DNA from: Candidatus Hydrogenedentota bacterium
GTDB lineage: Bacteria > Hydrogenedentota > Hydrogenedentia > Hydrogenedentales > SLHB01
Length of the DNA: 64,000 nucleotides
Assembly (NCBI GenBank): GCA_963668025.2
Contig: CAXXTH010000018.1
Span: 224,001-288,000 of the forward strand
Direction of reading: 5' to 3'
Shown in pieces: positions 5,889 through 20,570 of the stretch (within the stretch, counting starts at the first letter, position 1; every line of letters begins with the position of its first letter). Below the pieces are notes generated by a model. It did no database searches, was not told the origin of the DNA, and was given only the letters and a program-made list of their open reading frames with translations. The position numbers were made by a program, and so were the translations under genes.

Positions 5889-6825
5889 AGTAATTGCCCA
5901 CATCGACATGTTCGAGAGCGGCGATGGCGTCGTCCACCAGCACGGCCGCCGAGCAATAGAGCGAGATCAGATACGAACCGATGCCTTGTCCATTGATGCC
6001 CATGAATCGAACGGACAACCCAGGCGTCTGTTCACCAGGCAGGCCGGGCTGATACAAGCCAACCACGCCCTGTTTTTTCTCTCCAACACGCAGCAGGAGG
6101 ATATCGGATTTTCCGCCATTACCTACAGGATTGGCCTCCCCATCAACAAGGAGCTTGTTGGTGGGAATGATTGGAATACCACGCCATGTCAGAAATGGCG
6201 AGCCAAACAAGGTGACTGTCGCAGGAGGAACGCCACGCCGGGTGCATTCGCGCCCGAAAGCGGCTATGGCTCGCGGATGGGCCAGGAAGAATGATGGTTC
6301 TTTCCATACTTTCGCGATCAAGTCATCCAAATCATCCGGGGTCGGCGCGCCTTTTCGGGTTGATATGCGCTGTGCGCGGGGAACGTTTTTCAGCAAGCCA
6401 TATTCAACATTGTTGAGCAATTCGTTCTCTTGCTTTTCCTTGATGGCCTCAATGGTCAATCGTAGCTGCTCGCGAATCTGGTCGAACGGATTACTGTATA
6501 AATCCGAAATACGCGTGTGGACATCCAGCACCGTGCTGATGCTGCTTAGCGTATACTCACGCGGTTTTTCCTGGTAATTCACAAATGTGCGGGGAAGAAT
6601 GCTCTCATCCTTTTTACCGCAAACTAAATCGATGGGCTTGTCTTCATCGACTTGGTTAAGCCGGAATGTTCCTGCTTCCAGCGGCTTCCAATCCAACAGC
6701 CGGACGAGCCATCGTGGGGTAATCGCGCCATATTGTGGCGGAGTTTTGGTGACATTGGCGAGCTGGAACGCCGCTGAGTCGCCGAGAATGTGGCTTTGCG
6801 CTTTTGCTGCTTTGATGTCGGACAT
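5875..6825 (-). CDS. Family 2A encapsulin shell protein (SrpI / major membrane protein I family)
   Basis: QLANVTKTPPQ..ITPRWL, PREYTLS, DLYSNP, PTPDDLDDL, FLAHPRAIAAFGRECTRRGVPP, LSVRFMGI; GGAG RBS before ATG 6825. Confidence 0.95.
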   Translation of the reverse strand: MSDIKAAKAQSHILGDSAAFQLANVTKTPPQYGAITPRWLVRLLDWKPLEAGTFRLNQVDEDKPIDLVCGKKDESILPRTFVNYQEKPREYTLSSISTVLDVHTRISDLYSNPFDQIREQLRLTIEAIKEKQENELLNNVEYGLLKNVPRAQRISTRKGAPTPDDLDDLIAKVWKEPSFFLAHPRAIAAFGRECTRRGVPPATVTLFGSPFLTWRGIPIIPTNKLLVDGEANPVGNGGKSDILLLRVGEKKQGVVGLYQPGLPGEQTPGLSVRFMGINGQGIGSYLISLYCSAAVLVDDAIAALEHVDVGNYYDYK

Positions 6826-6968
6826 GTCTGTTCTCCAATAAGGTTGTATCGAGTTTGTTTCGTACAAAATAAAGCTACTGGGTTTACCAATGTGTTTGCC
6901 TACATCCTTGAGATATCCAGCAAAGCCACATTCACCAAAAAAAATACATACTTACATATCTAAATCAC

Positions 6969-8450
6969 TTAATATTTAGGGGTGCTGGGGTCCACTTGGC
7001 CGGACCAGCCCAAAATGCCGTCTTTAAGATTTACGAGACGGCCGCCATATCCCGACGCGCGCAAATCATTAATCGCCTTAGCGCTGCGTATGCCTACTTT
7101 GCAAAAAATGACCGCAACACGGGCGGGGTCGATTTCCGCGGCCCGGTTTACGATTTGCCCTAGCGGAATGAGCTTTTCATAAGGCAAATTTGCAATCGCA
7201 TATTCATGTGGTTCACGTACGTCGATCAGTTGGAAGTCGCGCTGTTCATCGAACCATTGCTTCAATTCGGCTGCCGAGATCTCATCAGGTGTTCCATTAG
7301 CTGTTTCGCCCACGGCTGGCGCGGGCTGGCGGAGTCCGCAGAATTCCTCATAATCGATCAGTTCATGAAGAACCGGCTTTTCGCCGCAGATAGGGCACTT
7401 AGGATTCTTATGCAGCTTCATTTCGCGGAAACGCATCTTCCACGCATCAAACAACAACAGCCGGTTAATAAGCGGTTCACCGCCGCCCAAAATGAGCTTG
7501 ATTGTCTCATTAGCCTGTATCGAGCCAATGATGCCCGGCAAGACGCCAAGCACGCCTCCTTCCGCGCATGAGGGAACCAGCCCTGGGGGCGGTGGTTCAG
7601 TGAATAGGCACCGATAGCAAGCGCCCACTTTTGCCCAGAAGACACTTGCCTGGCCCTCGAATCGAAAAATCGAGCCGTATACATTGGGTTTACCGAGCAG
7701 CACGCAGGCGTCATTGACCAAATACCGCGTCGGGAAATTATCCGTGCCATCCACAATAATGTCGTAATCACGAATGATATCCAGCGCGTTCTGGCTCGTT
7801 AGACGGGTATCATATGCATCCACTTGCACGTGCCGGTTGATGTCGTAGATGCGATCGGCGGCTGAAGCAATTTTAGGGCGCCCGATATCTCTTGTGCCGT
7901 GGATCACTTGGCGCTGTAGATTGGATTCATCCACCACATCAAAATCTACGATGCCCAGATGGCCAATACCCGCCGCCGCTAGGTATAATCCCACGGGCGC
8001 GCCGAGGCCGCCCGTGCCGATCATAAGCACTCGTGCATTTTTCAGTTTACGCTGCCCTTCGACACCGACTTCTGGAAGGATTAGGTGGCGGCTATAACGT
8101 AGGATCTCCTGGTTAGAGAGTTCCGGCAATTTCATATGACTTGACGCTTCCGCGATTTCCGGGGCTTCTTCGGCAACGCCTCCAGCAATGGACGGCACCA
8201 CCATGATCGCAGCCCCATCAGCTACTGGCGTCTCCAATCCTGACTGATACCGGATGTCCTCATCGTTCACATAGATATTGACGAAACTGCGTAATTCCCC
8301 TTTATCATTGAACAAGTGTTTATTCAGTTCGGTATGCTGCGCTACGAGCTGGCCAAGCGCTTCGCCGACGTTTTTTGCATGCACGGCTATCTCGGGTTGA
8401 TTGCCAGTAAAACGGCGCAACGCCGTGGGAATCTGAATTAAAACGGGCAT
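6969..8450 (-). CDS. Fusion of MoaD/CysO-like ubiquitin-like sulfur carrier, MoeB/E1 adenylyltransferase and rhodanese
   Basis: 8450-8178 Ubl (IPTALR..FVNIYVNDEDIR..PSIAGG); RYSRH, GTGGLG, SNLQRQ, CYRC, PSCAEGG, CPIC; rhodanese DVREPHE/FCKVGIRS. Confidence 0.9.
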   Translation of the reverse strand: MPVLIQIPTALRRFTGNQPEIAVHAKNVGEALGQLVAQHTELNKHLFNDKGELRSFVNIYVNDEDIRYQSGLETPVADGAAIMVVPSIAGGVAEEAPEIAEASSHMKLPELSNQEILRYSRHLILPEVGVEGQRKLKNARVLMIGTGGLGAPVGLYLAAAGIGHLGIVDFDVVDESNLQRQVIHGTRDIGRPKIASAADRIYDINRHVQVDAYDTRLTSQNALDIIRDYDIIVDGTDNFPTRYLVNDACVLLGKPNVYGSIFRFEGQASVFWAKVGACYRCLFTEPPPPGLVPSCAEGGVLGVLPGIIGSIQANETIKLILGGGEPLINRLLLFDAWKMRFREMKLHKNPKCPICGEKPVLHELIDYEEFCGLRQPAPAVGETANGTPDEISAAELKQWFDEQRDFQLIDVREPHEYAIANLPYEKLIPLGQIVNRAAEIDPARVAVIFCKVGIRSAKAINDLRASGYGGRLVNLKDGILGWSGQVDPSTPKY

Positions 8451-8454
8451 ATGC

Positions 8455-8883
8455 TCATGCTCCTTTCCGTATTGGCTCTGGGTTGAAACGAGAACGATCT
8501 GCTTCCATTTCCCAAGAAAGCAGGCTGCCTGCTTGGCCTTGGCGTATAGCGACAATGACGTACGAATACGTTGGCCAGGCATGGTCCAAATCAAACTGGG
8601 ACGGCTCCGCCGGATGATCGGGATGCGAGTGATAAAACCCGACCACATCAAGCGCTTTCGAGCGGGCAAGTTTCTCTCCCGCCAGCAACTCATTCGGCGC
8701 TATTAAGAATCGGTTGTGCCGGGAGCCTGTATCGCGCGCATTGGCGATGGGATGTATTTCCACAACGCTTTTTCCATGTTGCGAATCAATACGGCCGATA
8801 AGCAGCCCACAACACTCATGGGGATACTCCGCTTCGCCATGCCGCCGGATTGCATCGAGATGCTCGGTTTGAATCAAAATCAT
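8455..8883 (-). CDS. JAB/MPN+ (M67, Mec-like) metallopeptidase
   Basis: YPHECCGLL and YHSHPDHPAEPSQFD JAMM motif. Confidence 0.92.
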   Translation of the reverse strand: MILIQTEHLDAIRRHGEAEYPHECCGLLIGRIDSQHGKSVVEIHPIANARDTGSRHNRFLIAPNELLAGEKLARSKALDVVGFYHSHPDHPAEPSQFDLDHAWPTYSYVIVAIRQGQAGSLLSWEMEADRSRFNPEPIRKGA

Positions 8884-8885
8884 GC

Positions 8886-9851
8886 TCAACCCTCCTCCCA
8901 AAAGAAATCGCCCACATAACGGGAACCGCTGTCGCAGAGTATGGTGGCCACGACAGATCCAGGCGGCAGCGTGCGGGCCAGCCGGATGGCGGCAAATACA
9001 TTGGCTCCTGAACTGACGCCGACAAACAGCCCTTCACGTCGCGCCAAGCGCCGGGCGGTTTCCTGGGCATCTTCGGTGGAGACCTCCACCTGCTCATCTC
9101 CCAACGAAGCATCATAAATGCCAGGGACAATCGTTGTTTCTAGATGCTTCATCCCCTCCAAACCATGCAGAGGGGAGTCTGGCTGCATGCGAATGGCGCG
9201 CAAGCGGGGATTAAGCTCTTTTAGCCTGCGGACCGTACCGGTGAACGTGCCGGACGTGCCCATACCCGCAACAAAATGCGTCACCCGCCCTTCCGTCTGT
9301 TCCCATATTTCCGGGGCCGTCGTCTCATAATGCGCCCGCCAATTTGCTGGATTGTTATATTGATCTGGATAGAAGTATTTTCCAGGTTCTTTAACGGCTA
9401 ATTCGGCGGCCCGAACCTGTGCTCCGTCAGAACTCTGCAACGGATCGGTTTCAATGATCTGGGCTCCATATGCACGCATAATACGCTTGCGCTCTATACT
9501 GGCATTCTTCGGAAGGCATAATACGACCTGGTAGCCCAGAGTCGCACCGAGCATCGCATAAGCAATACCGGTATTGCCGCTGGTGGCGTCCAGAATAGTC
9601 ATGCCTGGCCGGAGCCGGCCCTCTCGTATTCCTTCTTGGATCATGGACCAGGCAGGCCGGTCTTTCACAGACCCGCCGGGATTCAAGTGCTCGGCTTTCG
9701 CATACACTGCCACCTCTTCAGGCAAATCATCCGCCAGGCGCGTGAGCCGCAATAACGGCGTGCGTCCAATGAGTTCGTATAATCTCCGCCCAATCCGAAC
9801 TGGACCAACAGAGGCGGCGAACTGCGTAGGAAGCGGTGCGGCGCAAACCAT
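8886..9851 (-). CDS. cysM: PLP-dependent cysteine synthase (CysM-like)
   Basis: KAEHLNPGGSVKDR, ATSGNTG, DQYNNPAN, GMGTSGT, GVSSGA. Confidence 0.88.
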   Translation of the reverse strand: MVCAAPLPTQFAASVGPVRIGRRLYELIGRTPLLRLTRLADDLPEEVAVYAKAEHLNPGGSVKDRPAWSMIQEGIREGRLRPGMTILDATSGNTGIAYAMLGATLGYQVVLCLPKNASIERKRIMRAYGAQIIETDPLQSSDGAQVRAAELAVKEPGKYFYPDQYNNPANWRAHYETTAPEIWEQTEGRVTHFVAGMGTSGTFTGTVRRLKELNPRLRAIRMQPDSPLHGLEGMKHLETTIVPGIYDASLGDEQVEVSTEDAQETARRLARREGLFVGVSSGANVFAAIRLARTLPPGSVVATILCDSGSRYVGDFFWEEG

Positions 9852-10048: not shown

Positions 10049-10996
10049 ATGAATCCGAATCCGAAAGATGAAATCGCCAATCTGGTGAATACTATCGTCG
10101 CTAGCTACCACGCCGAACCAAAAACACGCCACATTGGCGCGGGCAAACTTCCCAATCACGACGACATTGTCACGGTCATCCATTTGCTGCGGCAGATTTT
10201 GTTTCCGGGCTACTTTGGCAAGCAAGATTTAGAAATAGGCACCGTAGAATACCATGTAGGCGATCTGCTGATTGATATCCATGACCGCCTGCTCGCGCAA
10301 GTGCGCAGTGCGCTGCTTCATGAAGCCGCGCGTTTGGGAGAATCGCCCAGCGACAGTGAAGCCAGGGCGGAGCGTATCGTGAATGATTTTCTTCAGACGA
10401 TTCCGCAATTGCGCGCGGTGCTGGCGACGGATGTCCAAGCGGCTTTCGACGGCGATCCAGCAGCCGGGGACACCGATGAGATCATATTCTCCTATCCTGG
10501 CCTCTTTGCCATTACGGTATACCGGCTTGCCCACGAACTCTACCTGCGTGGAGTGCCGTTAATTCCCCGTATCATGGCCGAGCATGCGCACAGCGCCACG
10601 GGCATTGATATCCATCCAGGCGCTGATATCGATGAATACTTTTTCATTGACCATGGCACAGGCGTTGTCATCGGCGAGACAACCAAGATCGGCAAGCATG
10701 TCAAAATTTATCAAGGAGTCACACTGGGCGCGCTATCCACACGCGGTGGCCAGAAGTTGCGCGGCGTGAAGCGGCATCCTGCGCTCGAAGATGAAGTGAC
10801 CGTCTATTCGGGCGCGTCCATTCTTGGCGGGGAAACTGTCATACGTAAAGGCGTGGTCATTAGCAGCAACGTTTTCGTGACCCAATCCGTTCCGCCCAAT
10901 ACTCGAGTGACCGTGAAAAATCCTGAATTGCAATACCGGGATCAAAAGCCCAAAACATTCAAGCAAGATATGCCGCCTCTCGAATGGCAGATCTAG
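10049..10996 (+). CDS. cysE: Serine O-acetyltransferase (EpsC/CysE type)
   Basis: GDPAA, SYPG, YRLAHEL, TGIDIHPGA, FFIDHGTGVVIGET, YQGVTLG, KRHP. Confidence 0.93.
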   Translation: MNPNPKDEIANLVNTIVASYHAEPKTRHIGAGKLPNHDDIVTVIHLLRQILFPGYFGKQDLEIGTVEYHVGDLLIDIHDRLLAQVRSALLHEAARLGESPSDSEARAERIVNDFLQTIPQLRAVLATDVQAAFDGDPAAGDTDEIIFSYPGLFAITVYRLAHELYLRGVPLIPRIMAEHAHSATGIDIHPGADIDEYFFIDHGTGVVIGETTKIGKHVKIYQGVTLGALSTRGGQKLRGVKRHPALEDEVTVYSGASILGGETVIRKGVVISSNVFVTQSVPPNTRVTVKNPELQYRDQKPKTFKQDMPPLEWQI

Positions 10997-11036
10997 AGCA
11001 GCTCAAGCCCGTGCGCACATGCCGAAGATGAGGCTT

Positions 11037-11175
11037 AGCGCAGCGTAGCCGCAACCAAAGATCCGGATTTTGCACCACGAAGAAACGAAGAACACGAATA
11101 TTTTCCGCAGATGACACAGATGTCACAGATTAAAATCTAGAATTGATATCGTTTTACTTCGTGCTCTTCGTGGTG
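11037..11175. repeat. Extragenic palindromic/short-period repeat element, copy 1
   Basis: AGCGCAGCGTAGCCGCAACCAA; inverted CACCACGAAG../..CTTCGTGGTG arms; internal (CA)CAGAT repeats with 9-bp period. Confidence 0.5.
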
Positions 11176-11352
11176 GAAGTCTGGTCTCTAACGAGTTGAT
11201 GTATATTGATTTACGCAGAAAATCCATGCAAGGAAACTAGATTTCGACAAATAGTAGTTCGAATGAATCATCTCGATATGGCTGCAAGGGCCTTGTCGTT
11301 TTGCCATTCGGATATAGGATGTACGGAAATATCCCTGCCGTCCGTTTTCTAA

Positions 11353-11655
11353 GGGTGTAGCTCTGTTATTACCGCTCCTGGAAGAATATATCATGCGTAC
11401 GTATTGAAGAAATAACGTAAAACCGCCTACCTGTCATCCCCGCGAACGCGGGGATCCAGGGAATTTGCACTGGATTCCCGCTTTCGCGGGAATGACAGCA
11501 AGATAGATTACGGGGTTTTATACAACAAATGCTATTAGGTGGTGAGGCAAATCCACCATGCATTTTGGTTCATCCGCGCGCCCAAGAACGGCTCCAAATA
11601 AGTTGCGGCTATCCCTCGACAAGGCGAACGGAGCGGTAATAACAGAGCTGCACCC
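11353..11655. mobile_element. 303-bp MITE, copy 1, intact
   Basis: 26-bp TIRs GGGTGTAGCTCTGTTATTACCGCTCC / GGAGCGGTAATAACAGAGCTGCACCC; 8-bp TSD TTTTCTAA (11345-11352, 11656-11663); second copy at 48804-49106. Confidence 0.9.
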
Positions 11656-12033
11656 TTTTCTAATAACCTTTGAGCCTTAGCGTCTTTTCGTGTAATAGAA
11701 ATCTAGATTAATTTTACTTATCGCATGAGCCAAAATCATTATGTCCCGCATACTCGTGGCGCGGAAATCCTGAAACACAACGAACGAGTCGTAACTATAT
11801 GCTGAGGAAAAACCTGCTCAAGATGGCCAAAAAGATACCTGATTCTATTCCGCCTCCAATATCATAGAGCCTCCTCCTCCTAATCAGCCGCCTTCTGTTT
11901 CAAAAATAGCCGCCTATTTCCATTTCATTCAAACAAGTAAAAAACCGTAAATATATGTACTTAAAAGACTTACTAGAACTTAGCTTTAAGAAGACAAGGA
12001 TACAGACCGAAAAGAATAAGTATTTCGATTTAT

Positions 12034-12066
12034 ATACTTGACTTTACTCGCTAGGTATGATATTGT
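12034..12066 (+). promoter_or_regulatory. Sigma70 promoter of the nitrogenase-like operon overlapped by an IscR/Rrf2 type-1-like operator
   Basis: TTGACT(12038)-N17-TATTGT(12061) with extended TG; 25-mer ATACTTGACTTTACTCGCTAGGTAT (12034-12058) resembles ATASYYGACTRWWWYAGTCRRSTAT. Confidence 0.55.
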
Positions 12067-12110
12067 TTAGTAATCACAAGTAAATAAATCATATTTATCG
12101 GGTTTACGGT

Positions 12111-12992
12111 ATGGCGATCGATCAACAACACACATTCGCACATCTGGTCCGGCGCCATCCGTGCTACAACCCGGAGGCCCATGGGCGGCTTGGACGTATT
12201 CATCTGCCTGTGAGCTCTTCGTGCAACATCCGGTGCCGTTTTTGCCGGCGCTCCTTCAATGCGGAGGAGCATAGGCCGGGGGTAAGCCGGAAAGTGCTGG
12301 CGCCGGAGCAGGCGATGAAGGTGCTCGAACGGGCGTTGCGGCTTTGCCCGGCGATTTCAGTGGTGCGCGTGGCGGGGCCGGGCGAATCGCTGGCGACGGA
12401 GCATGCGCTTATCACGCTTGCTATGGCGCATGAACGCCACCCAGATTTGATTGGGTGCTTAAGTACGAACGGCCTGCGGCTCGCGGAGCATGTGGATGCG
12501 ATAGTGGCGGCAGGCGTATGCACGGTGTCGGTGACCGTCAATGCCGTCGAGCCGGAGATCTTGCAGCATATATGCGGCGGGGTGGAGGACCAAGGGCGTC
12601 TGAAGACGGGCGTAGAAGGAGCGGAAACGCTGATATCGGCGCAGCTCGAGGGAATTCGTTTGGCGGCAGGCCGGGGCCTTGTGGTGAAAACGAATATGGT
12701 GTTGATTCCAGAGGTGAATGATGGCCATGTCGGAGCGGTGGCGCGGACGATGGCGGAAGCGGGCGCGAGCCTGATTAACGTGCTTCCACTCATCCCTGAA
12801 CATGAAATGGCTTATATGCAAGCGCCGGATTGCCATGCAGTGAATGCGGCGCGGGAAGTAGCGGAGCAGTATTTGCCCGTATTCCGGCATTGCCGACAGT
12901 GCAGGGCGGATGCATGCGGGATTCCAGGAGCAGGCGTGGATTTCGCCGAGCAGTTATACGAGCAGCGAGTGGAAACCTTTTCACATGGGTGA
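12111..12992 (+). CDS. NifB/MarB-like radical SAM cluster-assembly protein, no fused NifX domain
   Basis: HPCY, CNIRCRFC, EHRPG, AGPGE, STNG, TVTVN-like SVTVN, HCRQCRADA. Confidence 0.88.
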   Translation: MAIDQQHTFAHLVRRHPCYNPEAHGRLGRIHLPVSSSCNIRCRFCRRSFNAEEHRPGVSRKVLAPEQAMKVLERALRLCPAISVVRVAGPGESLATEHALITLAMAHERHPDLIGCLSTNGLRLAEHVDAIVAAGVCTVSVTVNAVEPEILQHICGGVEDQGRLKTGVEGAETLISAQLEGIRLAAGRGLVVKTNMVLIPEVNDGHVGAVARTMAEAGASLINVLPLIPEHEMAYMQAPDCHAVNAAREVAEQYLPVFRHCRQCRADACGIPGAGVDFAEQLYEQRVETFSHG

Positions 12993-13001
12993 ATCGAGGA
13001 G

Positions 13002-14477
13002 ATGGTGATTATGCCGCTAGTGAAGCCGGTGGAAACCAGGGAATCGCGTTTACAGTCAACGGTGGCGTATGGGGGCGGATGCCACGGGCTGGCCAATGGC
13101 GGCAAATGCCGTTGCCTGAAGCGCTTGGATAGGCGCTTTTCTCAAGCAACCGTATGCCAGGAATGGTACAGCTTGTTCACGCTGCTGACGGTGCGCAACG
13201 CCGCCGTGGTGGTACATGGGCCGGTGGGATGCGTGAGCAGCGGCGCCACCATGAACATTTTCAGCAGGCTGGGCCAGGAGGCCCGCGGGCATGAAAAAAT
13301 CCGTAGCGCGCGCTGGTTTTCGACCAATTTGGCGGAAATCGACACCATTCATGGCGGCGAGGCGAAACTGCGCGCCACAGTGCATGCCATCGAGCAGCGC
13401 TATCACCCTGAAGCTATTTTCATCTTTACGACGTGCGTGTCTGGAATCATTGGTGATCCGATGGCGGATATCGTGAATCAGCTTCAGGAAGAAGTGCAGG
13501 CGCGGCTGGTCCTCAGCCAATGCGAAGGATTTCGCACATCGGTCTGGGCGACGGGCTTCGATGCGGCGTTTCACGGGATCATTCATTACCTCCTGGAAGA
13601 GCGCCCGGAAAAGGAGCCGGATTTGGTGAATATCATCACACCGCTGACCGTGGGGCGGCTGGATGAATTGGAATTGGAACGATTGCTTCATCAATTGGGC
13701 CTGCGTCCCAATTTCGTACCGTGCTACGCAGGCATTGAAGATTTAAAACGTACGGTAAGCGCGGCGGCGACGGCTGCGGCTTGCTTAACCTATGGCGATT
13801 ATTTCGCACGCGCACTTTCGGAGCGGTATGGCGTGCCCCATATTCGGGAAGTCATGCCATTGGGCATTGCGAGCACGGATCGGTGGCTTCTGGAACTGGC
13901 GCCGCTTTTAGGAAAAGAAGCCGAGGCGGAAGCCTTGATTGCACGGGAGCATGAGCGTATCGCTCCGCGTCTTGAAGAATTGAGGAAACGCTTGGCGGGT
14001 AAGCGGGTGTTTGTCAGCGCGGGACAGGCCCGCGCCACCACGATGGCGGCCATGTCGAAAGAATTGGGCTTCGAGATCGTGGGGGCCACGATTTACCACT
14101 ACGACGAAGTAATTGAACAGAGCATGCAGCGCCTGGCGCAAACGTGCGGCGATTTCGCAGTGAATGTGGCGAATGTGCAGCCGTTCGAGCAGGCGAATTT
14201 GCTCCAGCGGCTGAAACCCGACTTATACATGGCGGATGAGATGACGACGGTATGGGCGGCCCGCCAAGGCATCGCCACAATGATGATCTACGACTATGGC
14301 ATGAATTATTTGGGGTACAACGGCCTTCTGGCCACGGGCGGGCGGATGGCGCAAGCAATGGATAATTCGAGCTTCAATGTGAAGCTGGCCCGGTACAATC
14401 CGCTGCCATACCGCTCATCCTGGTATAACGCGGACCCCTTTAAATACATCACAACGCCAGGAGGCCAGAACATATGA
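13002..14477 (+). CDS. Nitrogenase-like component 1 alpha subunit (group IV NflD, MarD-related)
   Basis: RESRL..FSQ..C52, HGPVGC77, STNL, GGEAKL, TTC145, CEGF..WATGFDA, C261, QPFEQANLL, LPY. Confidence 0.85.
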   Translation: MVIMPLVKPVETRESRLQSTVAYGGGCHGLANGGKCRCLKRLDRRFSQATVCQEWYSLFTLLTVRNAAVVVHGPVGCVSSGATMNIFSRLGQEARGHEKIRSARWFSTNLAEIDTIHGGEAKLRATVHAIEQRYHPEAIFIFTTCVSGIIGDPMADIVNQLQEEVQARLVLSQCEGFRTSVWATGFDAAFHGIIHYLLEERPEKEPDLVNIITPLTVGRLDELELERLLHQLGLRPNFVPCYAGIEDLKRTVSAAATAAACLTYGDYFARALSERYGVPHIREVMPLGIASTDRWLLELAPLLGKEAEAEALIAREHERIAPRLEELRKRLAGKRVFVSAGQARATTMAAMSKELGFEIVGATIYHYDEVIEQSMQRLAQTCGDFAVNVANVQPFEQANLLQRLKPDLYMADEMTTVWAARQGIATMMIYDYGMNYLGYNGLLATGGRMAQAMDNSSFNVKLARYNPLPYRSSWYNADPFKYITTPGGQNI

Positions 14478-15784
14478 GCACAGAACAGCATTTGGTCGAG
14501 AATCCCCGGTATTCGTGCGCGCTCGGCGGCGCACTGGCGACGGCCACGGCCATGCACCGGGTGGTGCCCATCCTGCATGGCGGCCCCGGATGCGGGCTCC
14601 AAGTGTATAACGGACAGAATTATGTAGCAGGCTACCAAGGACCGGCGTATATCGGCGGCTCGGCTGTGCCCAGCACGAACACAGTGGAGCGCGAAGTGGT
14701 GTTCGGCGGCGAACAAAAGCTCCATGCGCTGCTCCGCTCCGCCATCGAGCTTATAGATGGCGATTTGTACCTCGTGCTGACCGGTTGCACGGCGGAGATC
14801 ATCGGCGATGATGTAGCGGCCGTGGTGGCGGAATACCGGCGGGAAGGGCGCAACGTGGCTTATGCGGAAACCGGCGGATTCAAAGGTAATACGCTGCTCG
14901 GTTATGAACTGGTGTGGAAGGGGCTGCTGCGCCAAGTCGTGGAGCGGCGTCCTCGCGATCCCAAGCTGGTGAATCTATTTGGCGTCATACCCGCGCAAGA
15001 TATTTTCTGGGAGGGCGGCCTCCAGGAGATCGCCCGGCTGCTCGAAGCGCTCGGCTTGCACGTACATACGTTTTATACCAACCGGCAAGGCGTCGAGGAA
15101 ATAAAGAATTCGTCCGCCGCCGCGCTCAATATCGTGCTAAATCCTTGGCTGGGCGCGGATCTTGCCGCGCAGTATGAAAAAGCGTACAGAGTTCCATCGC
15201 TTCGGTTTGACGGCATGCCGGTGGGCCCCACGGAAACGAGCGCCTTCTTGCGCACCGTGGGGGAAGCGCTTGGCCTGTCCACGGAGGCAGTGAACGCCGT
15301 AATCGAACGTGAAACGCAGGCGGTGTATGACCAATTCGCCAAGGCGTCGCTGGCGGTGACGGGGTTTGGATTCCAGCACCGGGTGGCCATTATTGGAGAA
15401 AGCGGGCCCGCGCTCAATCTGGCGCGCTTTCTTTCCAATGATTTCGGGCAGATTTTAGCCGCCGTGGCGATCACGGACGATCCGCCGGAGCCGGTGCGGG
15501 AGCGGCTGGCCGCGGCACTCGGCTCTTTGGAATTCGGCCCTATTCCAGAAGTGATCTTCACCTCGGAGCAATCCACGATCTGGGAACACATCCGCCAAAC
15601 GGAGCCGACGTACATTATCGGCAGTTCACTCGATAAGGATCTTGCCCAGGAACTGGGGGTGCTGCATCTGAGCGCCACATTCCCAGTCACGGACCGGGTC
15701 GTGCTTAACCGTTCTTACACAGGGTATCGCGGCTGCGTGACCCTGGTGGAAGACTTCATTGCGCAAGCAATCACGGCGTTATGA
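14474..15784 (+). CDS. Nitrogenase-like component 1 beta subunit (NflK, MarK-related)
   Basis: PRYSC15ALGG, HGGPGC40, PSTNTVEREVVFGGE, LTGC105..IIGDD, ETGGFKG, FPVTDR, GYRG; ATGA overlap with NflD. Confidence 0.85.
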   Translation: MSTEQHLVENPRYSCALGGALATATAMHRVVPILHGGPGCGLQVYNGQNYVAGYQGPAYIGGSAVPSTNTVEREVVFGGEQKLHALLRSAIELIDGDLYLVLTGCTAEIIGDDVAAVVAEYRREGRNVAYAETGGFKGNTLLGYELVWKGLLRQVVERRPRDPKLVNLFGVIPAQDIFWEGGLQEIARLLEALGLHVHTFYTNRQGVEEIKNSSAAALNIVLNPWLGADLAAQYEKAYRVPSLRFDGMPVGPTETSAFLRTVGEALGLSTEAVNAVIERETQAVYDQFAKASLAVTGFGFQHRVAIIGESGPALNLARFLSNDFGQILAAVAITDDPPEPVRERLAAALGSLEFGPIPEVIFTSEQSTIWEHIRQTEPTYIIGSSLDKDLAQELGVLHLSATFPVTDRVVLNRSYTGYRGCVTLVEDFIAQAITAL

Positions 15785-15932: not shown

Positions 15933-17378
15933 ATGGGCGTCGCAGTAGCACCTGAAACCATTCGAGCAGAGTCATATGGCCTCAAGGACCAAATCCTCTC
16001 GCCACTCGAGACCTTGGCGCAGTCCATTGCAAACATTGCGCCAACGGCCACGCCGACGGTAGTCATTCCATTGGTGTTTGCCTTATCCGGCAATGGAACC
16101 TGGCTTGCCTACCTCATCGCCACCGTCGCCATGCTGTTTGTGGCGTCGAACATCAACCATTTCGCCCGGCGTTCCGCATCGCCTGGCTCGTTGTACACCT
16201 ATATCGCCACGGGGCTAGGCCCAAGCTGGGGCGTTCTGGCGGGTTGGTCGCTGGTGATCGCGTACATCGGATGCGCATCCGCCGTCACCAGCGGATTCGC
16301 CAATTACGCCAATGTGTTTCTCCTAGCTACGGTGGGATTTGAGCTTCCGCCAGTCCTTTTGATCGCGCTCAGCGTGGCGCTTTCGTGGCTGGTGGCGTAT
16401 AAGGACATCCAGCTTTCCGCACGGCTCATGCTGGTGCTCGAGCTGTCCTCCGTGAGCTTGATCCTGTTGCTGGTGGCCATCACCCTCGTGCGGTTTGGCT
16501 TCCGCCTGGATCTTTCGCAAATCACGCTGGAAGGCGTGACTCCCACGAGCCTTCGCCTGGGCTTGGTGCTCGCCATGTTCAGCTTCGTGGGATTCGAGAG
16601 CGCGACAGCATTGGGCACGGAAGCGCGCAATCCACTGCGCAATATCCCCCGGGCCGTTGTCCTCAGTGCGGTAATCGTCGGAAGCTTGTTTGTGATTGCG
16701 ACGTATGCCGAGGTCATTGGCTTCACGGGTTCTAGCGAGACGCTAGGTGCGAGTTCCGCGCCGCTGCATGTGCTCGCGGAACGAGGAGGAGCGCCTTTCT
16801 TGGGCCTTCTCGTGGACCTAGGCGCGGTGGTGAGCCTGTTCGCATGCACGCTCGCCAGCATCAATGCCGGTGCGCGCGTTCTCTTCCTCATGGGCCGCCA
16901 CGGCATTTTCCATGCTTCCGTGGGCGGCGCGCATGATACGAATGAAACGCCTCACATCGCCGTGACCATTTCCACCGTGCTGGCGTTCCTTCCCGCGGCG
17001 TTCCTCGCCCTGCGCGGCGTCGCCATGTTCGACATTTATGGATGGGTGGGCACTGTTTGCACATTGGGATTCCTGGTGGCGTACGTCATCGTTTCGGTGG
17101 CTGCTCCAGTCTATTTGCGCCGCCGAGGCGAACTACGCCTGCACCATGTGGCGGTGGCTGCGCTGGCCGTGGGCCTTTTGGTCCTGGCTATCGCCGGGAA
17201 CCTCTACCCCGTGCCTCCAGCTCCCCTAAATTGGCTCCCCTATCTGTATTTCGGCCTGCTGCTGTCTGGCGCCGTATGGCTCATGGTGCTGCGCTACTTC
17301 GCACCCAATGTGATCATCCGTATCCAAGATGACGTGGCGGCCATCCGTGAACGGTTCAGTGATGGGGGCGGCATTTGA
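15933..17378 (+). CDS. APC-family amino acid/amine permease
   Basis: ~12 hydrophobic segments, AQSIANIAPT, PGSLYTY, FSFVGFESA, EARNPLRNIPRA. Confidence 0.9.
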   Translation: MGVAVAPETIRAESYGLKDQILSPLETLAQSIANIAPTATPTVVIPLVFALSGNGTWLAYLIATVAMLFVASNINHFARRSASPGSLYTYIATGLGPSWGVLAGWSLVIAYIGCASAVTSGFANYANVFLLATVGFELPPVLLIALSVALSWLVAYKDIQLSARLMLVLELSSVSLILLLVAITLVRFGFRLDLSQITLEGVTPTSLRLGLVLAMFSFVGFESATALGTEARNPLRNIPRAVVLSAVIVGSLFVIATYAEVIGFTGSSETLGASSAPLHVLAERGGAPFLGLLVDLGAVVSLFACTLASINAGARVLFLMGRHGIFHASVGGAHDTNETPHIAVTISTVLAFLPAAFLALRGVAMFDIYGWVGTVCTLGFLVAYVIVSVAAPVYLRRRGELRLHHVAVAALAVGLLVLAIAGNLYPVPPAPLNWLPYLYFGLLLSGAVWLMVLRYFAPNVIIRIQDDVAAIRERFSDGGGI

Positions 17379-17706: not shown

Positions 17707-19266
17707 ATGACGAAACGAATCTTATTTCTAACGCTGCTGGCCGGACTTTTGCCGCTGCCCGCCATAGCCGAATTGCAGAACGTCGAGATAGGCGGCAAAC
17801 TCCAAATACGTGGGAATTGGTACACCAATTATTTGGCCAGTCCGGATGGAGCCCGCCTGCGGTGGCCTGGCAATTGGCTTGCTGGGCGCGCCATAGGCTC
17901 CTCGGATGGAAGCATCTGGAGCGCCTTTTCCTGGGACAAAGACAGCAATAGCTCCCGCGATGTGAACCAGCGGACCCGGCTAAGCGCCAAGGCCGATTTT
18001 ACAGGTGAGGTGACAGGGCTCATCGAGTTCGACAGTTATGACACCTGGGGTGAGGATTTCCGCTCGAACCACATCACGGGCGCGGATTTTCGCCAAAACT
18101 CGGCGGCGGATGATGTCTCGGTATATCAAGCTTATATCGAGGCGCGCGAATTAGGCGGATTGCCCCTTACGCTCAAAGTCGGGCGGCAGGAAGTGCTGCT
18201 TGGCAGCGGATGGCTTATCGGAACGAATGACACTGGTTCTATTTTCACCGGGCTTTCGTTTGACGCGGTAGCGCTGGTATACGCTCAAGACCCTGTGCAA
18301 ATCGTTGGCTTCTGGGCAAAAGGCTATGATGGCGGCCTTGCGGAAGAAGACGGCGATGTGGACCTCTACGGCGTATACGGCACGTACACCGGGCTTGAGA
18401 ACCAGGCCTTTGATGCGTACTGGATCTTGGGCCGCGATGCGCGCAGTGTCAATGACACCAATTTTAGCTGGGTGGGGGAAACCGTTGAAGGCTTTCTTGG
18501 GCTAGATGACTATAATGTTACCAATCTGCATACGGTCGGCCTCCGCGGAAGTGGCAAGATCGGCGCGTTTGATTATGAAGCGGAAGCCGCATATCAGTTT
18601 GGAGATGCAAGCCAGGAAGGCTCCCTGTTCAAGTTGGGCTTCTATGGCGATGACGATGCTTCTTTTGATGCGCTGGGTGCGAATTTGGAGTTGGGCTACA
18701 CATTCGACACCGCGTGGTCGCCTCGCTTGTTCTTGGGCGGCGCCTATTTCAGCGGTGAAGACAACCGCTCGACATCGTTCTGGGATCAGTTTAATCCCTT
18801 CCGGGAGCCCAAGGCGAGCGTGAGTTTTGACCGCTTGTTCTCGAACTGGGGCTACAGTGAGTTTCTAGATTTCACGGAACTCTCTAACATCTATGTCTTG
18901 AGATCAGGCGTGGTGGCGAAACCCACGGAAGCGCTGACCTTAAAACTGCTCCTCAGCTACTTCAATACGGTCGAGCCCTTTGAAGCCCCTGTAACCTTCA
19001 ATCTGGGTGGTTATCAGATTCCCATTGCTCCAGGCCTGGGGTGGTGGACCAAGGAAAATCCTTCGGATTTGGGCTGGGAGGCCGAGGTTATCGCCAACTA
19101 TCAGTACACCGAAGACCTGTCTTTCGAGGTGGGCTGGGCGCACTTGTTCGTGGGCGACGGCTTAGCCTCGGGCGCGTTTAATTCCAATAATGGACTGGCT
19201 TTTACGGGCGGTTCAGGAAGCGACGACTCAGATTACCTCTATGCGGAGACCAAACTTAAATTCTAG
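17707..19266 (+). CDS. Outer-membrane beta-barrel porin (alginate-export-like family)
   Basis: Signal peptide, QRTRL, YQAYI, KVGRQE, FDA, amphipathic strands, C-terminal YAETKLKF. Confidence 0.8.
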   Translation: MTKRILFLTLLAGLLPLPAIAELQNVEIGGKLQIRGNWYTNYLASPDGARLRWPGNWLAGRAIGSSDGSIWSAFSWDKDSNSSRDVNQRTRLSAKADFTGEVTGLIEFDSYDTWGEDFRSNHITGADFRQNSAADDVSVYQAYIEARELGGLPLTLKVGRQEVLLGSGWLIGTNDTGSIFTGLSFDAVALVYAQDPVQIVGFWAKGYDGGLAEEDGDVDLYGVYGTYTGLENQAFDAYWILGRDARSVNDTNFSWVGETVEGFLGLDDYNVTNLHTVGLRGSGKIGAFDYEAEAAYQFGDASQEGSLFKLGFYGDDDASFDALGANLELGYTFDTAWSPRLFLGGAYFSGEDNRSTSFWDQFNPFREPKASVSFDRLFSNWGYSEFLDFTELSNIYVLRSGVVAKPTEALTLKLLLSYFNTVEPFEAPVTFNLGGYQIPIAPGLGWWTKENPSDLGWEAEVIANYQYTEDLSFEVGWAHLFVGDGLASGAFNSNNGLAFTGGSGSDDSDYLYAETKLKF

Positions 19267-19340: not shown

Positions 19341-19679
19341 ATGGCGGTGCGGATTGCTATCACGAGCATAGACAATGTGCTGGTCGAACAGCACTTTGGC
19401 GCAGCGGTGCGTTTTCAAGTATATGAAATCGGAGCAGGTGAATACCGCTTCATAGAAGCGCGCGACACATCGCCTTCTTGTGATCGTGGCGAAACCAACG
19501 CCGCCAGGAGAATCCATCACGTGCTTGATGCGCTTTCAGACTGCACGGCCGTGCTGGCGAGCTGCATAGGCCCATGCGCCGCCCAGGAATTACAGGCGCG
19601 AGGAATGCGCTATTACATCACGTATGAATATATTGAAACAGCACTGAGAAAATTGATAACGCAAAAAGTATTCGCTTAG
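19341..19679 (+). CDS. NifB/NifX-family cluster-binding protein
   Basis: RIAITS..VEQHFGAA..F.VY, LSDCTAVL..IGP. Confidence 0.85.
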   Translation: MAVRIAITSIDNVLVEQHFGAAVRFQVYEIGAGEYRFIEARDTSPSCDRGETNAARRIHHVLDALSDCTAVLASCIGPCAAQELQARGMRYYITYEYIETALRKLITQKVFA

Positions 19680-19694: not shown

Positions 19695-20570
19695 ATGTCG
19701 AAGAAGATTAAACAAGTGGCGATTTATGGCAAGGGCGGAATTGGAAAATCCACGACGACATCGAATATCAGCGCGGCGCTAGCCGTGGCGGGCTACCGGG
19801 TTATGCAGTTCGGCTGCGATCCCAAGAGTGATTCCACCAATACATTGCGCGGCGGGCATTATATCCCAACCGTTCTGGATTCTTTGCGCGAACATGAAAA
19901 TGTCCGTCCCGAGGAAGTGGTTTATCAAGGCTTCGGAGGCGTTTACTGTGTGGAAGCAGGCGGGCCAGCGCCCGGCGTGGGTTGCGCGGGGCGCGGCATC
20001 ATCACTGCAGTGGATTTGATGAAACAGCTCCATGTCTTCGAGGACCTCGATATCGATATCGTGATTTATGATGTCCTTGGAGACGTAGTATGCGGCGGAT
20101 TCGCCGTGCCCATCCGGGAAGGCATCGCCGAGCATGTATTCACGGTGTCTTCCGCGGACTTCATGGCCATCTATGCGGCGAATAACCTGTTTAAAGGCAT
20201 TCGGAAATACTCGCATGCTGGCGGCGCACTCTTGGGTGGTGTCATCGCCAACTCGATCAACAAGCCGTATGCACGGGACATTATTGATGACTTCGTATTG
20301 CAGACAAGCACAAAAGTCATCGAATATGTGCCCCGCTCCGTGACCGTGACCCAAAGCGAATTGCAAGGTAAAACAGTCATTGAAGCTGCTCCGGCGTCCG
20401 AACAAGCGCGCATTTATAGCAGTTTGGCTGAACGGCTTGTTCAGCACACCGATTCGCGCATCCCCACGCCTCTCGAAAACCAGGGGCTTCGGGAATGGGC
20501 GGAAAAATGGGCCGAAGTGCTGTTGTCCATCGAAATAGGAGAAGTGCAGGGAACCGCCGCCAGTATCTAA
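19695..20570 (+). CDS. Nitrogenase iron-protein-like ATPase, MarH-like
   Basis: YGKGGIGKSTT, GCDPKSDST, EAGGPAPGVGCAGRG, DVLGDVVCGGF; MQFGCDPK..NTLRGG and IAEHVFTVSS recall MarH rather than NifH. Confidence 0.9.
   Translation: MSKKIKQVAIYGKGGIGKSTTTSNISAALAVAGYRVMQFGCDPKSDSTNTLRGGHYIPTVLDSLREHENVRPEEVVYQGFGGVYCVEAGGPAPGVGCAGRGIITAVDLMKQLHVFEDLDIDIVIYDVLGDVVCGGFAVPIREGIAEHVFTVSSADFMAIYAANNLFKGIRKYSHAGGALLGGVIANSINKPYARDIIDDFVLQTSTKVIEYVPRSVTVTQSELQGKTVIEAAPASEQARIYSSLAERLVQHTDSRIPTPLENQGLREWAEKWAEVLLSIEIGEVQGTAASI

What the first reader, a model, noticed from the sequence alone, without database searches (positions are those of the whole stretch)
13002..15784. Divergent NflDK: P-cluster cysteines kept, but the His cluster ligand appears replaced by acidic residues
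Seen: NflD has C52/C77/C145 (P-cluster spacing) and C261 (NifD Cys275-like), NflK has C15/C40/C105, and NflD has extra N-terminal C27/C36/C38. After 'LLQRLKPD' the sequence is LYMA-D412-E413-MT (14235-14240), with no His from there to the C-terminus. From memory, MarD has an Arg-His here whose His ligates the active-site cluster, and its segment after the first Cys (SEQMVECQ-like) differs from 'QEWYSLFT' here. Inference: a different cluster ligation and substrate pocket, i.e. a new nitrogenase-like activity served by a very MarH-like Fe protein.
Basis: partly seen in the sequence, partly recalled or inferred. Interest (0 to 1): 0.85.

Follow-up and report, generated by a model that had tools for sequence, protein, structure and literature searches.

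The report
Nitrogenase-like sulfur enzyme with aspartate ligand
A sulfur-scavenging relative of nitrogenase keeps all its cluster-binding cysteines but carries a conserved aspartate where its closest solved relative uses a histidine to hold the catalytic iron-sulfur-carbon cluster, marking an uncharacterised enzyme subfamily.

Summary
NflD (13002/13011-14477) and NflK (14474-15784) align end to end with R. rubrum MarD/MarK (PDB 9fmg; E 5e-89 and 2e-94). The six P-cluster cysteines and the MarD Cys270 equivalent (C261) are present. D412 sits in the column of MarD His429, the published Fe8 ligand of the [Fe8S9C] cluster. The loop is one residue shorter and has no Arg428.

This is a clade trait. 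Asp is found in 22 of 22 close relatives and in 11 of 11 metagenome loci, and Glu in two 53-57% relatives. The clade (100/99) lies outside the Arg-His clade (100/100) that holds MarD.

Four channel residues and MarD His194 differ from MarD but are invariant within the clade. An Arg at column 344 appears to stand in for Arg428.

The genome has only this DK pair. It also encodes a NifB-like maturase, a NifX-like protein and a very MarH-like Fe protein. The cluster lies in a sulfur-starvation island (CysE, CysM, ThiS-ThiF-rhodanese, JAMM, desulfurase encapsulin) next to a co-conserved amino-acid permease.

Best reading: an ATP-driven C-S reductase with a carboxylate-anchored cofactor and a non-Mar substrate. 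Ligation and substrate are inferred, not shown.

The parts
12111..12992 (+). nflB: NifB-like radical SAM maturase without a NifX domain
   Evidence: TIGR01290 nifB 254 bits over profile positions 5-278. 258 bits to the NifB structures 7jmb/7bi7 along its full length, with the CNIxCxFC and CxQCRADA motifs aligned.
13002..14477 (+). nflD: catalytic alpha-type subunit (probable start 13011)
   Evidence: PF00148 278 bits. Best PDB hit is MarD 9fmg_A, E 4.6e-89. The AF2 model's top Foldseek hit is 9fmg_A with TM 0.85/0.89. It scores below every NCBIfam equivalog cut-off.
14235..14240 (+). Codons for D412 and E413, in the column of MarD His429 and Asn430
   Evidence: Sequence; alignments. D is invariant in 22 of 22 clade members and position 413 is E (14) or D (8).
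14474..15784 (+). nflK: beta-type subunit; its ATG overlaps the nflD stop (ATGA)
   Evidence: E 2e-94 to MarK 9d9u_C. C15/C40/C105 are invariant in 15 of 15 clade NflK sequences. The overlap is seen.
15933..17378 (+). APC-family amino-acid permease, co-conserved with the clade
   Evidence: PF00324/PF13520 and TIGR00909 130 bits. The same family is present in 9 of 13 sources. It lies directly after nflK in L003, L073 and L074 at 55-65% identity.
17707..19266 (+). Alginate-export-type outer-membrane porin
   Evidence: PF13372 106 bits. Not found in the related loci.
19341..19679 (+). NifX-like cofactor carrier
   Evidence: PF02579 70 bits; TIGR02663 nifX 55 bits. Adjacent to nflH in L003, L068, L070, L072, L076 and L079.
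19695..20570 (+). nflH: ATP-dependent Fe protein of MarH type
   Evidence: TIGR01287 404 bits, above the 394.35 cut-off. 482 bits to MarH 9fmg_D. It is the only full NifH-family match in the genome.
10049..10996 (+). Putative cysE (serine acetyltransferase), by my own reading
   Evidence: ORF, named from its translation by eye; no family search was run on it. A tblastn homologue sits beside the cluster in L007.
8886..9851 (-). CysM/CysK-type PLP cysteine synthase (context)
   Evidence: PF00291 257 bits. 40% homologues flank the cluster in L003 and L004.
8455..8901 (-). JAMM/Mov34 peptidase (context; Mec-like)
   Evidence: PF14464 94 bits.
6969..8693 (-). ThiS-ThiF-rhodanese fusion, a sulfur-carrier activation protein (context)
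   Evidence: PF02597, PF00899 and PF00581. The ThiS domain begins at residue 86, so the true start is probably about 80 codons inside the listed ORF.
5875..6867 (-). SrpI-like family 2A encapsulin shell (context)
   Evidence: PF19307 355 bits. The same pair lies beside the cluster in L002.
3909..5909 (-). 666-aa cysteine desulfurase with a long N-terminal extension, probably the encapsulin cargo (context)
   Evidence: PF00266 at residues 282-651. Homologues in L002 and L071.

Best explanation
The locus encodes a complete, self-contained two-component nitrogenase-like reductase for sulfur acquisition. It is related to, but not a member of, the methylthio-alkane reductases.

Inferred mechanism:
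- NflB builds a NifB-co/L-type [Fe8S9C] cluster.
- The NifX-like protein carries it to NflDK.
- NflH, a MarH-type Fe protein, uses ATP to pass electrons to a P-cluster held by three Cys from NflD and three from NflK.
- The P-cluster passes them to the active-site cluster.

That cluster is anchored at Fe1 by Cys261. At the opposite end I propose that the carboxylate of Asp412 takes the place of the His used by MarD, and that Arg344 takes over the belt-sulfide contact of MarD Arg428.

The remodelled aromatic pocket (W55, Y56, F59, M84, F87, V181) and the co-conserved amino-acid permease point to a substrate other than the small volatile thioethers of Mar. A likely candidate is an amino-acid-like organosulfur compound whose C-S bond is reductively cleaved. 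The released reduced sulfur would feed the adjacent cysteine-synthesis genes.

Shown: the homology, the residue columns, the conservation, the phylogenetic position and the gene context. Inferred: the cofactor identity, the Asp ligation, the Arg344 role and the substrate class.
For: - Full-length homology to MarD, MarK, MarH and NifB structures, and the best fold match is 9fmg_A.
- All seven Cys ligand columns are kept in D and K.
- D412 occupies the His429 column in three alignment methods.
- Asp is present in 22 of 22 clade members and in 11 of 11 loci L068-L078. L079 and L080/P0101 have Glu.
- The clade formed by the Asp members, the Glu members and two sequences with Arg-Asp at these columns has 97/92 support, and none of its 12 rows has His.
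- Arg344 is present in every short-loop group (Asp 22/22, methanogen 30/31, loop-deleted 10/10, bacterial Gly-His 33/33). It is Tyr or Phe in the Arg-His groups.
- The own genome has only this DK pair and one NifH-type gene, so NflB and NifX have no other client.
- nflB lies in 8 of 17 clade loci; most of the remaining loci are short contigs.
- The permease family is present in 9 of 13 sources.
- The context is sulfur-related.
- No PF01077 or PF01507 match was found in the 93.75%-complete genome.
- There is precedent for non-His or oxygen ligands in this superfamily: NifE Gln419 on the L-cluster and BchB Asp on the DPOR NB-cluster.
Against: - No coordinates were available, so the Asp-Fe8 distance was not measured.
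- Asp is shorter than His, and the model has only pLDDT 73 overall.
- The sister clade has deleted this part of the loop altogether (10 sequences). The loop I ligand may therefore have become dispensable in this lineage, or another residue such as the invariant C38 may serve.
- MarD H429L and H429F are inactive, but no Asp variant has been tested.
- The substrate guess rests on a generic APC permease, which is missing from 4 of 13 sources.
- In 6 of 17 loci the Asp-type pair sits beside Arg-His-type pairs and shares one H/B/X set with them. This would also fit an accessory role.
- No RNA data were found.
Confidence: 0.55

Rival explanations
1. It is the same kind of enzyme, but Asp412 is not a ligand. 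The active-site cluster would be held by Cys261 plus some other residue (C38, a loop II Tyr or Asp, or an exogenous ligand). Alternatively the site holds a different cofactor from MarD, and the acidic pair shapes the pocket or binds a cationic substrate group.
For: - The sister clade lacks the loop residues altogether yet keeps C261, R344 and the P-cluster Cys.
- C38 is invariant in all short-loop groups. It lies 14 residues before the first P-cluster Cys; NifE Cys25, the outer L-cluster ligand, lies 12 residues before NifE Cys37.
- Position 413 is also always acidic in the Asp clade.
Against: - The Asp/Glu exchange falls exactly at the ligand column, and His is absent from the whole 97/92 clade.
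- The column lies at the N-terminus of a confidently modelled helix (block pLDDT 82), as expected for a cluster ligand.
- Every His-bearing neighbour uses this same column.
Confidence: 0.22
2. It is an ordinary methylthio-alkane reductase acting on DMS, EMS and MT-EtOH, and merely uses a variant apical ligand.
For: - Its best solved relatives are MarD, MarK and MarH.
- It has a marBHDK-like gene set in a sulfur context.
- W182, F186 and H366, the equivalents of MarD W195, F199 and H375, are kept.
Against: - It lies outside the 100/100 Arg-His clade that holds the IV-C anchors.
- It lacks the proposed Arg428-His429 hallmark.
- M70, C73, Y98, I101 and H194 of MarD are replaced by Y, F, M, F and V.
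- In the mBio screen only Group IV-C systems gave physiological Mar activity. I could not see whether this clade was among those tested.
Confidence: 0.1
3. It is a NifEN-like assembly scaffold or cofactor store that matures or donates the L-type cluster to neighbouring Arg-His-type NflDK enzymes.
For: - It sits in tandem with Arg-His-type DK pairs and shares one H/B/X set with them in L002, L004, L071, L072, L073 and L078.
- NifE likewise lacks the His and uses a weak O/N ligand, Gln419, together with N-terminal Cys residues.
Against: - The window's genome has no other DK pair to serve (93.75% complete).
- NflK keeps all three P-cluster Cys in 15 of 15 sequences. In NifEN the corresponding cluster is ligated by three NifE Cys, with NifN Cys44 only hydrogen-bonded.
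- The pocket residues are invariant, as expected for a substrate site.
Confidence: 0.08
4. It is a decaying or non-functional paralogue that has lost its cofactor ligand.
For: - The essential His is absent.
- One relative, L080, carries an in-frame stop.
Against: - The reading frames are intact and translationally coupled.
- 75% mean column identity is kept across members from at least four phyla.
- The maturase genes are retained.
Confidence: 0.03

Closest known systems
Methylthio-alkane reductase MarBHDK of Rhodospirillum rubrum (Group IV-C; PDB 9fmg, 9d9u)
   Same: It has the same two-component architecture: a NifB-like maturase, a MarH-type Fe protein, six P-cluster Cys and the Cys270 equivalent. 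MarD W195, F199 and H375 are kept. The fold matches at TM 0.85/0.89, and the context is sulfur limitation.
   Different: MarD His429 is Asp here, and Arg428 is absent from a loop one residue shorter. M70, C73, Y98, I101 and H194 of MarD are Y, F, M, F and V. It belongs to a different clade. The genes are split by a permease and a porin, and there is a separate NifX-like gene.
NifEN with inward-bound L-cluster (PDB 9onk; PMC13031127)
   Same: The L-cluster is held by the Cys275-equivalent at one end and by a non-His oxygen/nitrogen donor (Gln419) at the other. N-terminal Cys residues lie near the first cluster Cys.
   Different: The NifE ligand is on loop II and is a neutral amide. The partner NifN lacks the full Cys triad. 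NifEN is a scaffold rather than a reductase. NflD scores only 172 bits against the 505-bit NifE cut-off.
DPOR BchNB/ChlNB NB-cluster
   Same: It is a member of the same superfamily in which an aspartate carboxylate is a proven Fe-S cluster ligand (review passages).
   Different: There the Asp is on the B subunit, at a P-cluster Cys position, and binds a [4Fe-4S] cluster, not the far end of an 8Fe cofactor.
Uncharacterised Gly-His short-loop NflD groups (methanogen clade at about 47% identity; bacterial clade including one Heliophilum fasciatum paralogue)
   Same: They share the loop length, C38, Q342/R344, the Y365-H366-Y367-D368 motif, W55, F87, V181 and W182.
   Different: They keep His at the ligand column. 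They have L at position 56, I at 84, Y at 186, and F-N-L in place of Y430-D431-Y432.

Membership tests
Methylthio-alkane reductase MarD (Group IV-C) | Six P-cluster cysteines (three in D, three in K) | tested here: met
   C52/C77/C145 and K C15/C40/C105 align to MarD 66/91/158 and MarK 32/56/121.
Methylthio-alkane reductase MarD (Group IV-C) | Cys270 ligand to Fe1 of the [Fe8S9C] cluster | tested here: met
   C261 aligns to it and is invariant in 22 of 22 clade members.
Methylthio-alkane reductase MarD (Group IV-C) | Arg428-His429 on the extended loop I (the proposed hallmark) | tested here: not met
   The loop is one residue shorter, has no Arg, and has Asp at the His column.
Methylthio-alkane reductase MarD (Group IV-C) | Phylogenetic placement with verified MarD | tested here: not met
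   The IV-C anchor P0089 (667 bits to 9fmg_A) lies in a 100/100 Arg-His clade that excludes the window clade. AU test of forcing the two together: delta lnL 26.2, p 0.045. This test is weak because the group was named after a first tree had been seen.
Methylthio-alkane reductase MarD (Group IV-C) | Conserved residues around S2B and the channel (H194, W195, S196, F199, F374, H375; M70, C73, Y98, I101) | tested here: not met
   W195, F199 and H375 are kept. H194 is V, S196 is A, F374 is Y, M70 is Y, C73 is F, Y98 is M and I101 is F. This was mapped by hand and the conservation comes.
Methylthio-alkane reductase MarD (Group IV-C) | Cleavage of DMS, EMS or MT-EtOH to methanethiol plus hydrocarbon | not testable with these tools
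   Needs an assay.
Group IV nitrogen-fixation-like (NFL) system, broad sense | NifD/K-like pair with NifH-like and NifB-like partners, lacking the nitrogenase His442 and homocitrate residues, in a sulfur-metabolism context | tested here: met
True nitrogenase NifD/VnfD/AnfD | Score above the family cut-off, and a loop II His442 | tested here: not met
   nifD scores 155 bits against a 653.55 cut-off. There is no His after residue 412.
NifEN scaffold | NifE family score, and a partner lacking the full P-cluster Cys triad | tested here: not met
   nifE scores 172 bits against a 505.1 cut-off. NflK has all three Cys.

The most novel reading that the evidence does not exclude
This clade may be the first nitrogenase-family reductase whose carbide-centred [Fe8S9C] cofactor is anchored by a protein carboxylate (Asp, or Glu in basal members) instead of His. 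In this reading the harder, possibly hemilabile ligand and the rebuilt aromatic pocket adapt the cofactor to a reaction not yet described for the family: reductive desulfurisation of an imported amino-acid-type organosulfur compound.
Probability: 0.3. Interest if true: 0.85.

Novelty: new variant of a known kind. Interest (0 to 1): 0.62.

Why it matters
The 2026 review of NFL enzymes states that MarD Cys270, His429 and Arg428 are conserved in nearly all Group IV systems, and that finding functions for the uncharacterised clades is the field's main challenge (passages).

This work defines a coherent clade, present in at least four phyla, that breaks that motif in a chemically meaningful way: His is replaced by Asp or Glu. 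It comes with a complete maturation set and, in this genome, no competing paralogue.

That gives a clean natural experiment on how the apical ligand tunes an L-type cofactor. It also gives a concrete candidate for a new anaerobic C-S cleavage reaction in sulfur scavenging.

The mutually exclusive placement of the Arg (column 344 versus loop I) is a second testable structural prediction.

Tried and rejected
- **Riboswitch:** an Rfam scan of the whole window found none upstream of nflB, only group II intron domains at about 41.5 kb. The 1.1-kb gap before nflB holds no ORF of 80 aa or more.
- **RNA evidence:** no RNA holder was listed among the sequencing runs, and read laying was not used.
- **Model coordinates:** they are not exposed, so no Asp-to-Cys261 distance or superposition on 9fmg could be computed.
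- **Outgroup:** ten distant representatives checked with NCBIfam all fell below the nitrogenase cut-offs. The trees are therefore rooted only on remote NFL sequences, and the order of events is not established.
- **Subgroup labels:** the H. fasciatum locus L019 could not be used as a IV-A (Nfa) label. That organism has five NflDK paralogues and no nflH was found in L019. The lettered subgroup stays unassigned. A literature search for 'Group IV-D/IV-E' found only the mBio paper.
- **Prior description:** the searches and the 'aspartate' passages of the review showed no description of an Asp or Glu variant at this column. Supplements were closed and may list such sequences.
Full report
**1. Observation**

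- NflD (13002-14477, 491 codons) has C27, C36, C38, C52, C77, C145 and C261.
- After LLQRLKPD it reads LYMA-D412-E413-MTT. The codons GAT GAG lie at 14235-14240.
- No His follows up to the C-terminus.
- NflK (14474-15784) has C15, C40 and C105.

The start is more likely the ATG at 13011. A GGAG lies 9 nt before it but directly abuts the 13002 ATG. The gene-called protein P0001 and all homologues begin at that position.

**2. Gene set**

| Gene | Coordinates | Key evidence |
|---|---|---|
| nflB | 12111-12992 | NifB-like radical SAM enzyme without a NifX domain; 258 bits to the NifB structures 7jmb/7bi7 |
| nflD, nflK | 13002-15784 | translationally coupled through an ATGA overlap |
| permease | 15933-17378 | APC-family amino-acid permease |
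| porin | 17707-19266 | alginate-export-type |
| nifX-like | 19341-19679 | separate NifX-like gene |
| nflH | 19695-20570 | see below |

NflH passes the NifH equivalog cut-off (404 against 394 bits). It is much closer to R. rubrum MarH (482 bits to 9fmg_D) than to any true NifH (281 bits at best).

NflD and NflK fall below every NCBIfam equivalog cut-off.

**3. Closest solved relatives**

NflD matches 9fmg_A and 9d9u_A (MarD) at E 5e-89 over residues 18-489. NflK matches MarK at 2e-94.

An AlphaFold2 model was built on the 18-sequence clade alignment. It has mean pLDDT 73.2 and pTM 0.74. Its best Foldseek hit is 9fmg_A (TM 0.85/0.89, 36% identity), ahead of NifD and NifE at TM of about 0.73.

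**4. The ligand column**

The MarDK paper (passages read) gives these ligands:
- MarD Cys66/91/158 and MarK Cys32/56/121 hold the P-cluster.
- Cys270 binds Fe1 of the [Fe8S9C] cluster.
- His429 binds Fe8. It sits on an extended loop I, next to Arg428, which hydrogen-bonds belt sulfide S5A.
- Arg428-His429 is proposed as a Mar hallmark.

Counting through the printed alignment gives:

| MarD residue | Window residue |
|---|---|
| C66 | C52 |
| C91 | C77 |
| C158 | C145 |
| C270 | C261 |
| H429 | D412 |
| R428 | one-residue gap |
| N430 | E413 |

MAFFT auto (93 sequences) and L-INS-i put D412 in the same column as the His of MarD-type and Gly-His-type relatives.

In the model, this residue is the first after strand 405-408 and caps helix 410-417 (P0001 numbering). 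The block pLDDT there is 82.

**5. Conservation**

- The 17 nearest proteins (60-71% identity) and the window protein all have [A/S]-D-[D/E] (18 of 18).
- Adding four named genome loci gives D412 in 22 of 22. They come from Myxococcales, Solibacteraceae, Lentisphaerae and an unclassified lake MAG.
- Eleven metagenome loci, L068-L078, also have Asp (11 of 11). Some are probably the same proteins as P-entries.
- Two more distant relatives have Glu at that column: L079 (57% identity, 'LILAEGAT') and L080 (53%, 'LYVGEPAT'). L080 has one in-frame stop, and the fragment P0101 carries the same motif.
- Among 219 aligned relatives, 163 keep all four NflD Cys. Their ligand column reads His 105, Asp 28, gap 15, Glu 4, Gly 3, Asn 2, Arg 2, Ser 2, Val 1, Pro 1. 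This sample was collected around the query and is biased.
- NflK's three Cys are invariant in 15 of 15 clade sequences.

**6. Phylogeny**

A careful IQ-TREE run used 44 rows and LG+C20+F+G4 by PMSF; support is given as UFBoot/SH-aLRT.

| Grouping | Support |
|---|---|
| Asp clade | 100/99 |
| Asp + Glu + a long-branched pair with Arg-Asp at these columns | 97/92 |
| the above + a loop-deleted clade | 87/93 |
| the above + a methanogen Gly-His clade | 56/74 (weak) |
| Arg-His clade | 100/100, separate |

The Arg-His clade contains the IV-C anchors. The anchor P0089 scores 667 bits to 9fmg_A.

Quick trees agree. Forcing the Asp clade and the Arg-His clade together costs 26.2 lnL, with AU p 0.045. 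This test is weak because the grouping was named after a first tree had been seen.

Roots are on remote NFL sequences only, so I do not claim the direction of change.

**7. Pocket and covariation**

I mapped by hand, the residues that the literature names as lining the Mar channel and the S2B site.

| MarD residue | Window residue |
|---|---|
| M70 | Y56 |
| C73 | F59 |
| Y98 | M84 |
| I101 | F87 |
| H194 | V181 |
| W195 | W182 |
| S196 | A183 |
| F199 | F186 |
| F374 | Y365 |
| H375 | H366 |
| H450 | G433 |

- Within the Asp clade these residues are invariant in 22 of 22, with two exceptions: A183 (19) and H366 (19).
- Column 344 (SAGQAR) covaries with the loop type. It is Arg in all short-loop groups: Asp 22/22, methanogen 30/31, loop-deleted 10/10, bacterial Gly-His 33/33.
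- The same column is Tyr in all 8 IV-C sequences and Phe or Tyr in 20 of the 27 other Arg-His sequences. Those groups instead carry the loop I Arg.
- I read this as two alternative placements of the same cluster-contacting Arg. That is an inference.
- C38 is invariant in all short-loop groups. It lies 14 residues before C52. NifE's outer L-cluster ligand Cys25 lies 12 residues before NifE Cys37. A role in cluster docking is a hypothesis only.

**8. Context and distribution**

- **Own genome.** It is 6.1 Mb and 93.75% complete. It has only this D/K pair and one full NifH-type gene.
- **Relatives.** None of 60 other genomes sampled from the same order has a match at E 1e-30 or better. Together with the cross-phylum clade membership, this points to horizontal spread.
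- **Upstream genes.** These are a putative cysE (named from its translation only), a cysM-type synthase, a JAMM peptidase, a ThiS-ThiF-rhodanese fusion, an SrpI-like encapsulin shell and a 666-aa cysteine desulfurase.
- **Recurrence in relatives.** The encapsulin/desulfurase pair recurs beside the cluster in L002. PF01053 Cys/Met PLP enzymes flank it in L002 and L004. The L068 and L070 members of that gene cluster were grouped by BLAST only.
- **Sulfate assimilation.** The genome gave no PF01077 (sulfite reductase) and no PF01507 (PAPS reductase) match. It has one ATP sulfurylase. Because the assembly is incomplete, this is only a suggestion that the organism depends on reduced or organic sulfur.
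- **Permease.** The APC permease family is present in 9 of 13 sources (the window plus 12 loci). It lies directly after nflK in L003, L073 and L074.
- **Maturase.** nflB is found in 8 of 17 clade loci. Most of the others are short contigs.
- **Tandem pairs.** In 6 of 17 loci the Asp-type pair sits in tandem with Arg-His-type pairs and shares one H/B/X set with them.

**9. Mechanism**

The homology, the ligand columns, the clade, the pocket differences and the context are shown. The following chain is inferred:
- NflB makes an L-type cluster and the NifX-like protein delivers it.
- NflH drives ATP-coupled electron transfer through a P-cluster to an [Fe8S9C]-type cofactor.
- That cofactor is bound by Cys261 and by the Asp412 carboxylate, with Arg344 on a belt sulfide.
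- The substrate is not a Mar thioether but an imported, probably amino-acid-like, organosulfur compound.
- The released reduced sulfur enters the adjacent cysteine pathway.

Non-His ligation has precedent in this superfamily. NifE Gln419 binds the terminal Fe of the inward L-cluster. BchB Asp binds the DPOR NB-cluster.

**10. Rivals**

- Asp is not a ligand. The loop-deleted sister clade and the conserved C38 keep this possibility open.
- It is an ordinary Mar. The clade position, the missing hallmark and the changed pocket speak against this.
- It is a NifEN-like scaffold. The tandem arrangement elsewhere fits. The single pair in this genome and the full Cys triad of NflK speak against it.
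- It is a relic. The conservation speaks against this.

**11. Literature status**

The review states that Cys270, His429 and Arg428 are conserved in nearly all Group IV systems and that H429L and H429F are inactive. The R. palustris preprint reports the His in all three of its paralogues (section 5). The mBio study found Mar activity only in IV-C.

I found no description of an Asp or Glu variant in the searches or in the 'aspartate' passages. Figures and supplements were not visible and may contain members of this clade. The lettered subgroup therefore stays unassigned.

Noticed in passing
window 3909-6867 (-): An SrpI-like family 2A encapsulin shell gene followed by a 666-aa cysteine desulfurase with a roughly 280-residue N-terminal extension, probably the cargo. 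This is a desulfurase encapsulin operon directly beside the sulfur-carrier and cysteine-synthesis genes. The same pair lies next to the NFL cluster in L002.
   Followed up: partly
alignment column of window NflD R344, against MarD R428: The Arg placement is mutually exclusive. All short-loop Group IV clades have Arg at column 344 and none in loop I. Arg-His clades have Tyr or Phe at column 344 and Arg in loop I.
   Followed up: partly
window NflD C38 (and C27): C38 is invariant across all short-loop NflD groups, and C27 is present in 16 of 18 clade members. Their spacing to the first P-cluster Cys resembles that of NifE Cys25 and Cys15, the outer L-cluster ligands.
   Followed up: partly
P0050-P0058, P0103, P0109, P0112, L082, L097, L099: A sister clade (Treponema and other MAGs) has deleted three to four residues of loop I, including the ligand column, yet keeps C261, R344 and all P-cluster Cys. 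What holds Fe8 there is unexplained.
   Followed up: no
P0119, P0113, P0106, P0082 (the last named Clostridium kluyveri): A clade next to the Arg-His group has T-C-P-F or T-G-C motifs in loop I. This raises the possibility of a Cys apical ligand. The alignment there is uncertain.
   Followed up: no
L005-L016 and P0019-P0047: A large methanogen clade (Methanosarcina, Methanobacterium, Methanobrevibacter MAGs) of NflDK pairs with full P-cluster Cys and a Gly-His loop. It is the nearest His-bearing relative of the window clade, at about 47% identity.
   Followed up: partly
L002, L072, L073: Up to three or four paralogous NflDK pairs of different loop types sit in one locus and share a single nflH/nflB/nifX set.
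   Followed up: partly
window 10997-12110: A 1.1-kb stretch upstream of nflB has no ORF of 80 aa or more and no Rfam match. The 10-12 kb region has lower G+C (0.485). It may be a regulatory region.
   Followed up: partly
window 41527-41814 (-): Group II intron domain RNA matches: RF02001 at 122 bits and RF01998 at 53 bits.
   Followed up: no
own genome G000: No PF01077 (sulfite reductase) and no PF01507 (PAPS/APS reductase) match, but one ATP sulfurylase, in a 93.75%-complete assembly. No NflD homologue in 60 other genomes sampled from the same order.
   Followed up: partly
L080:271-1707: This Glu-type relative carries one in-frame stop codon within an otherwise intact nflD. It could be a pseudogene or a sequencing error.
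   Followed up: no
window 6969-8693 (-) and 8455-8901 (-): The listed 574-aa ThiS-ThiF-rhodanese ORF overlaps the JAMM gene by about 240 nt. The ThiS domain starts at residue 86, so the true start is probably just after the JAMM stop.
   Followed up: no
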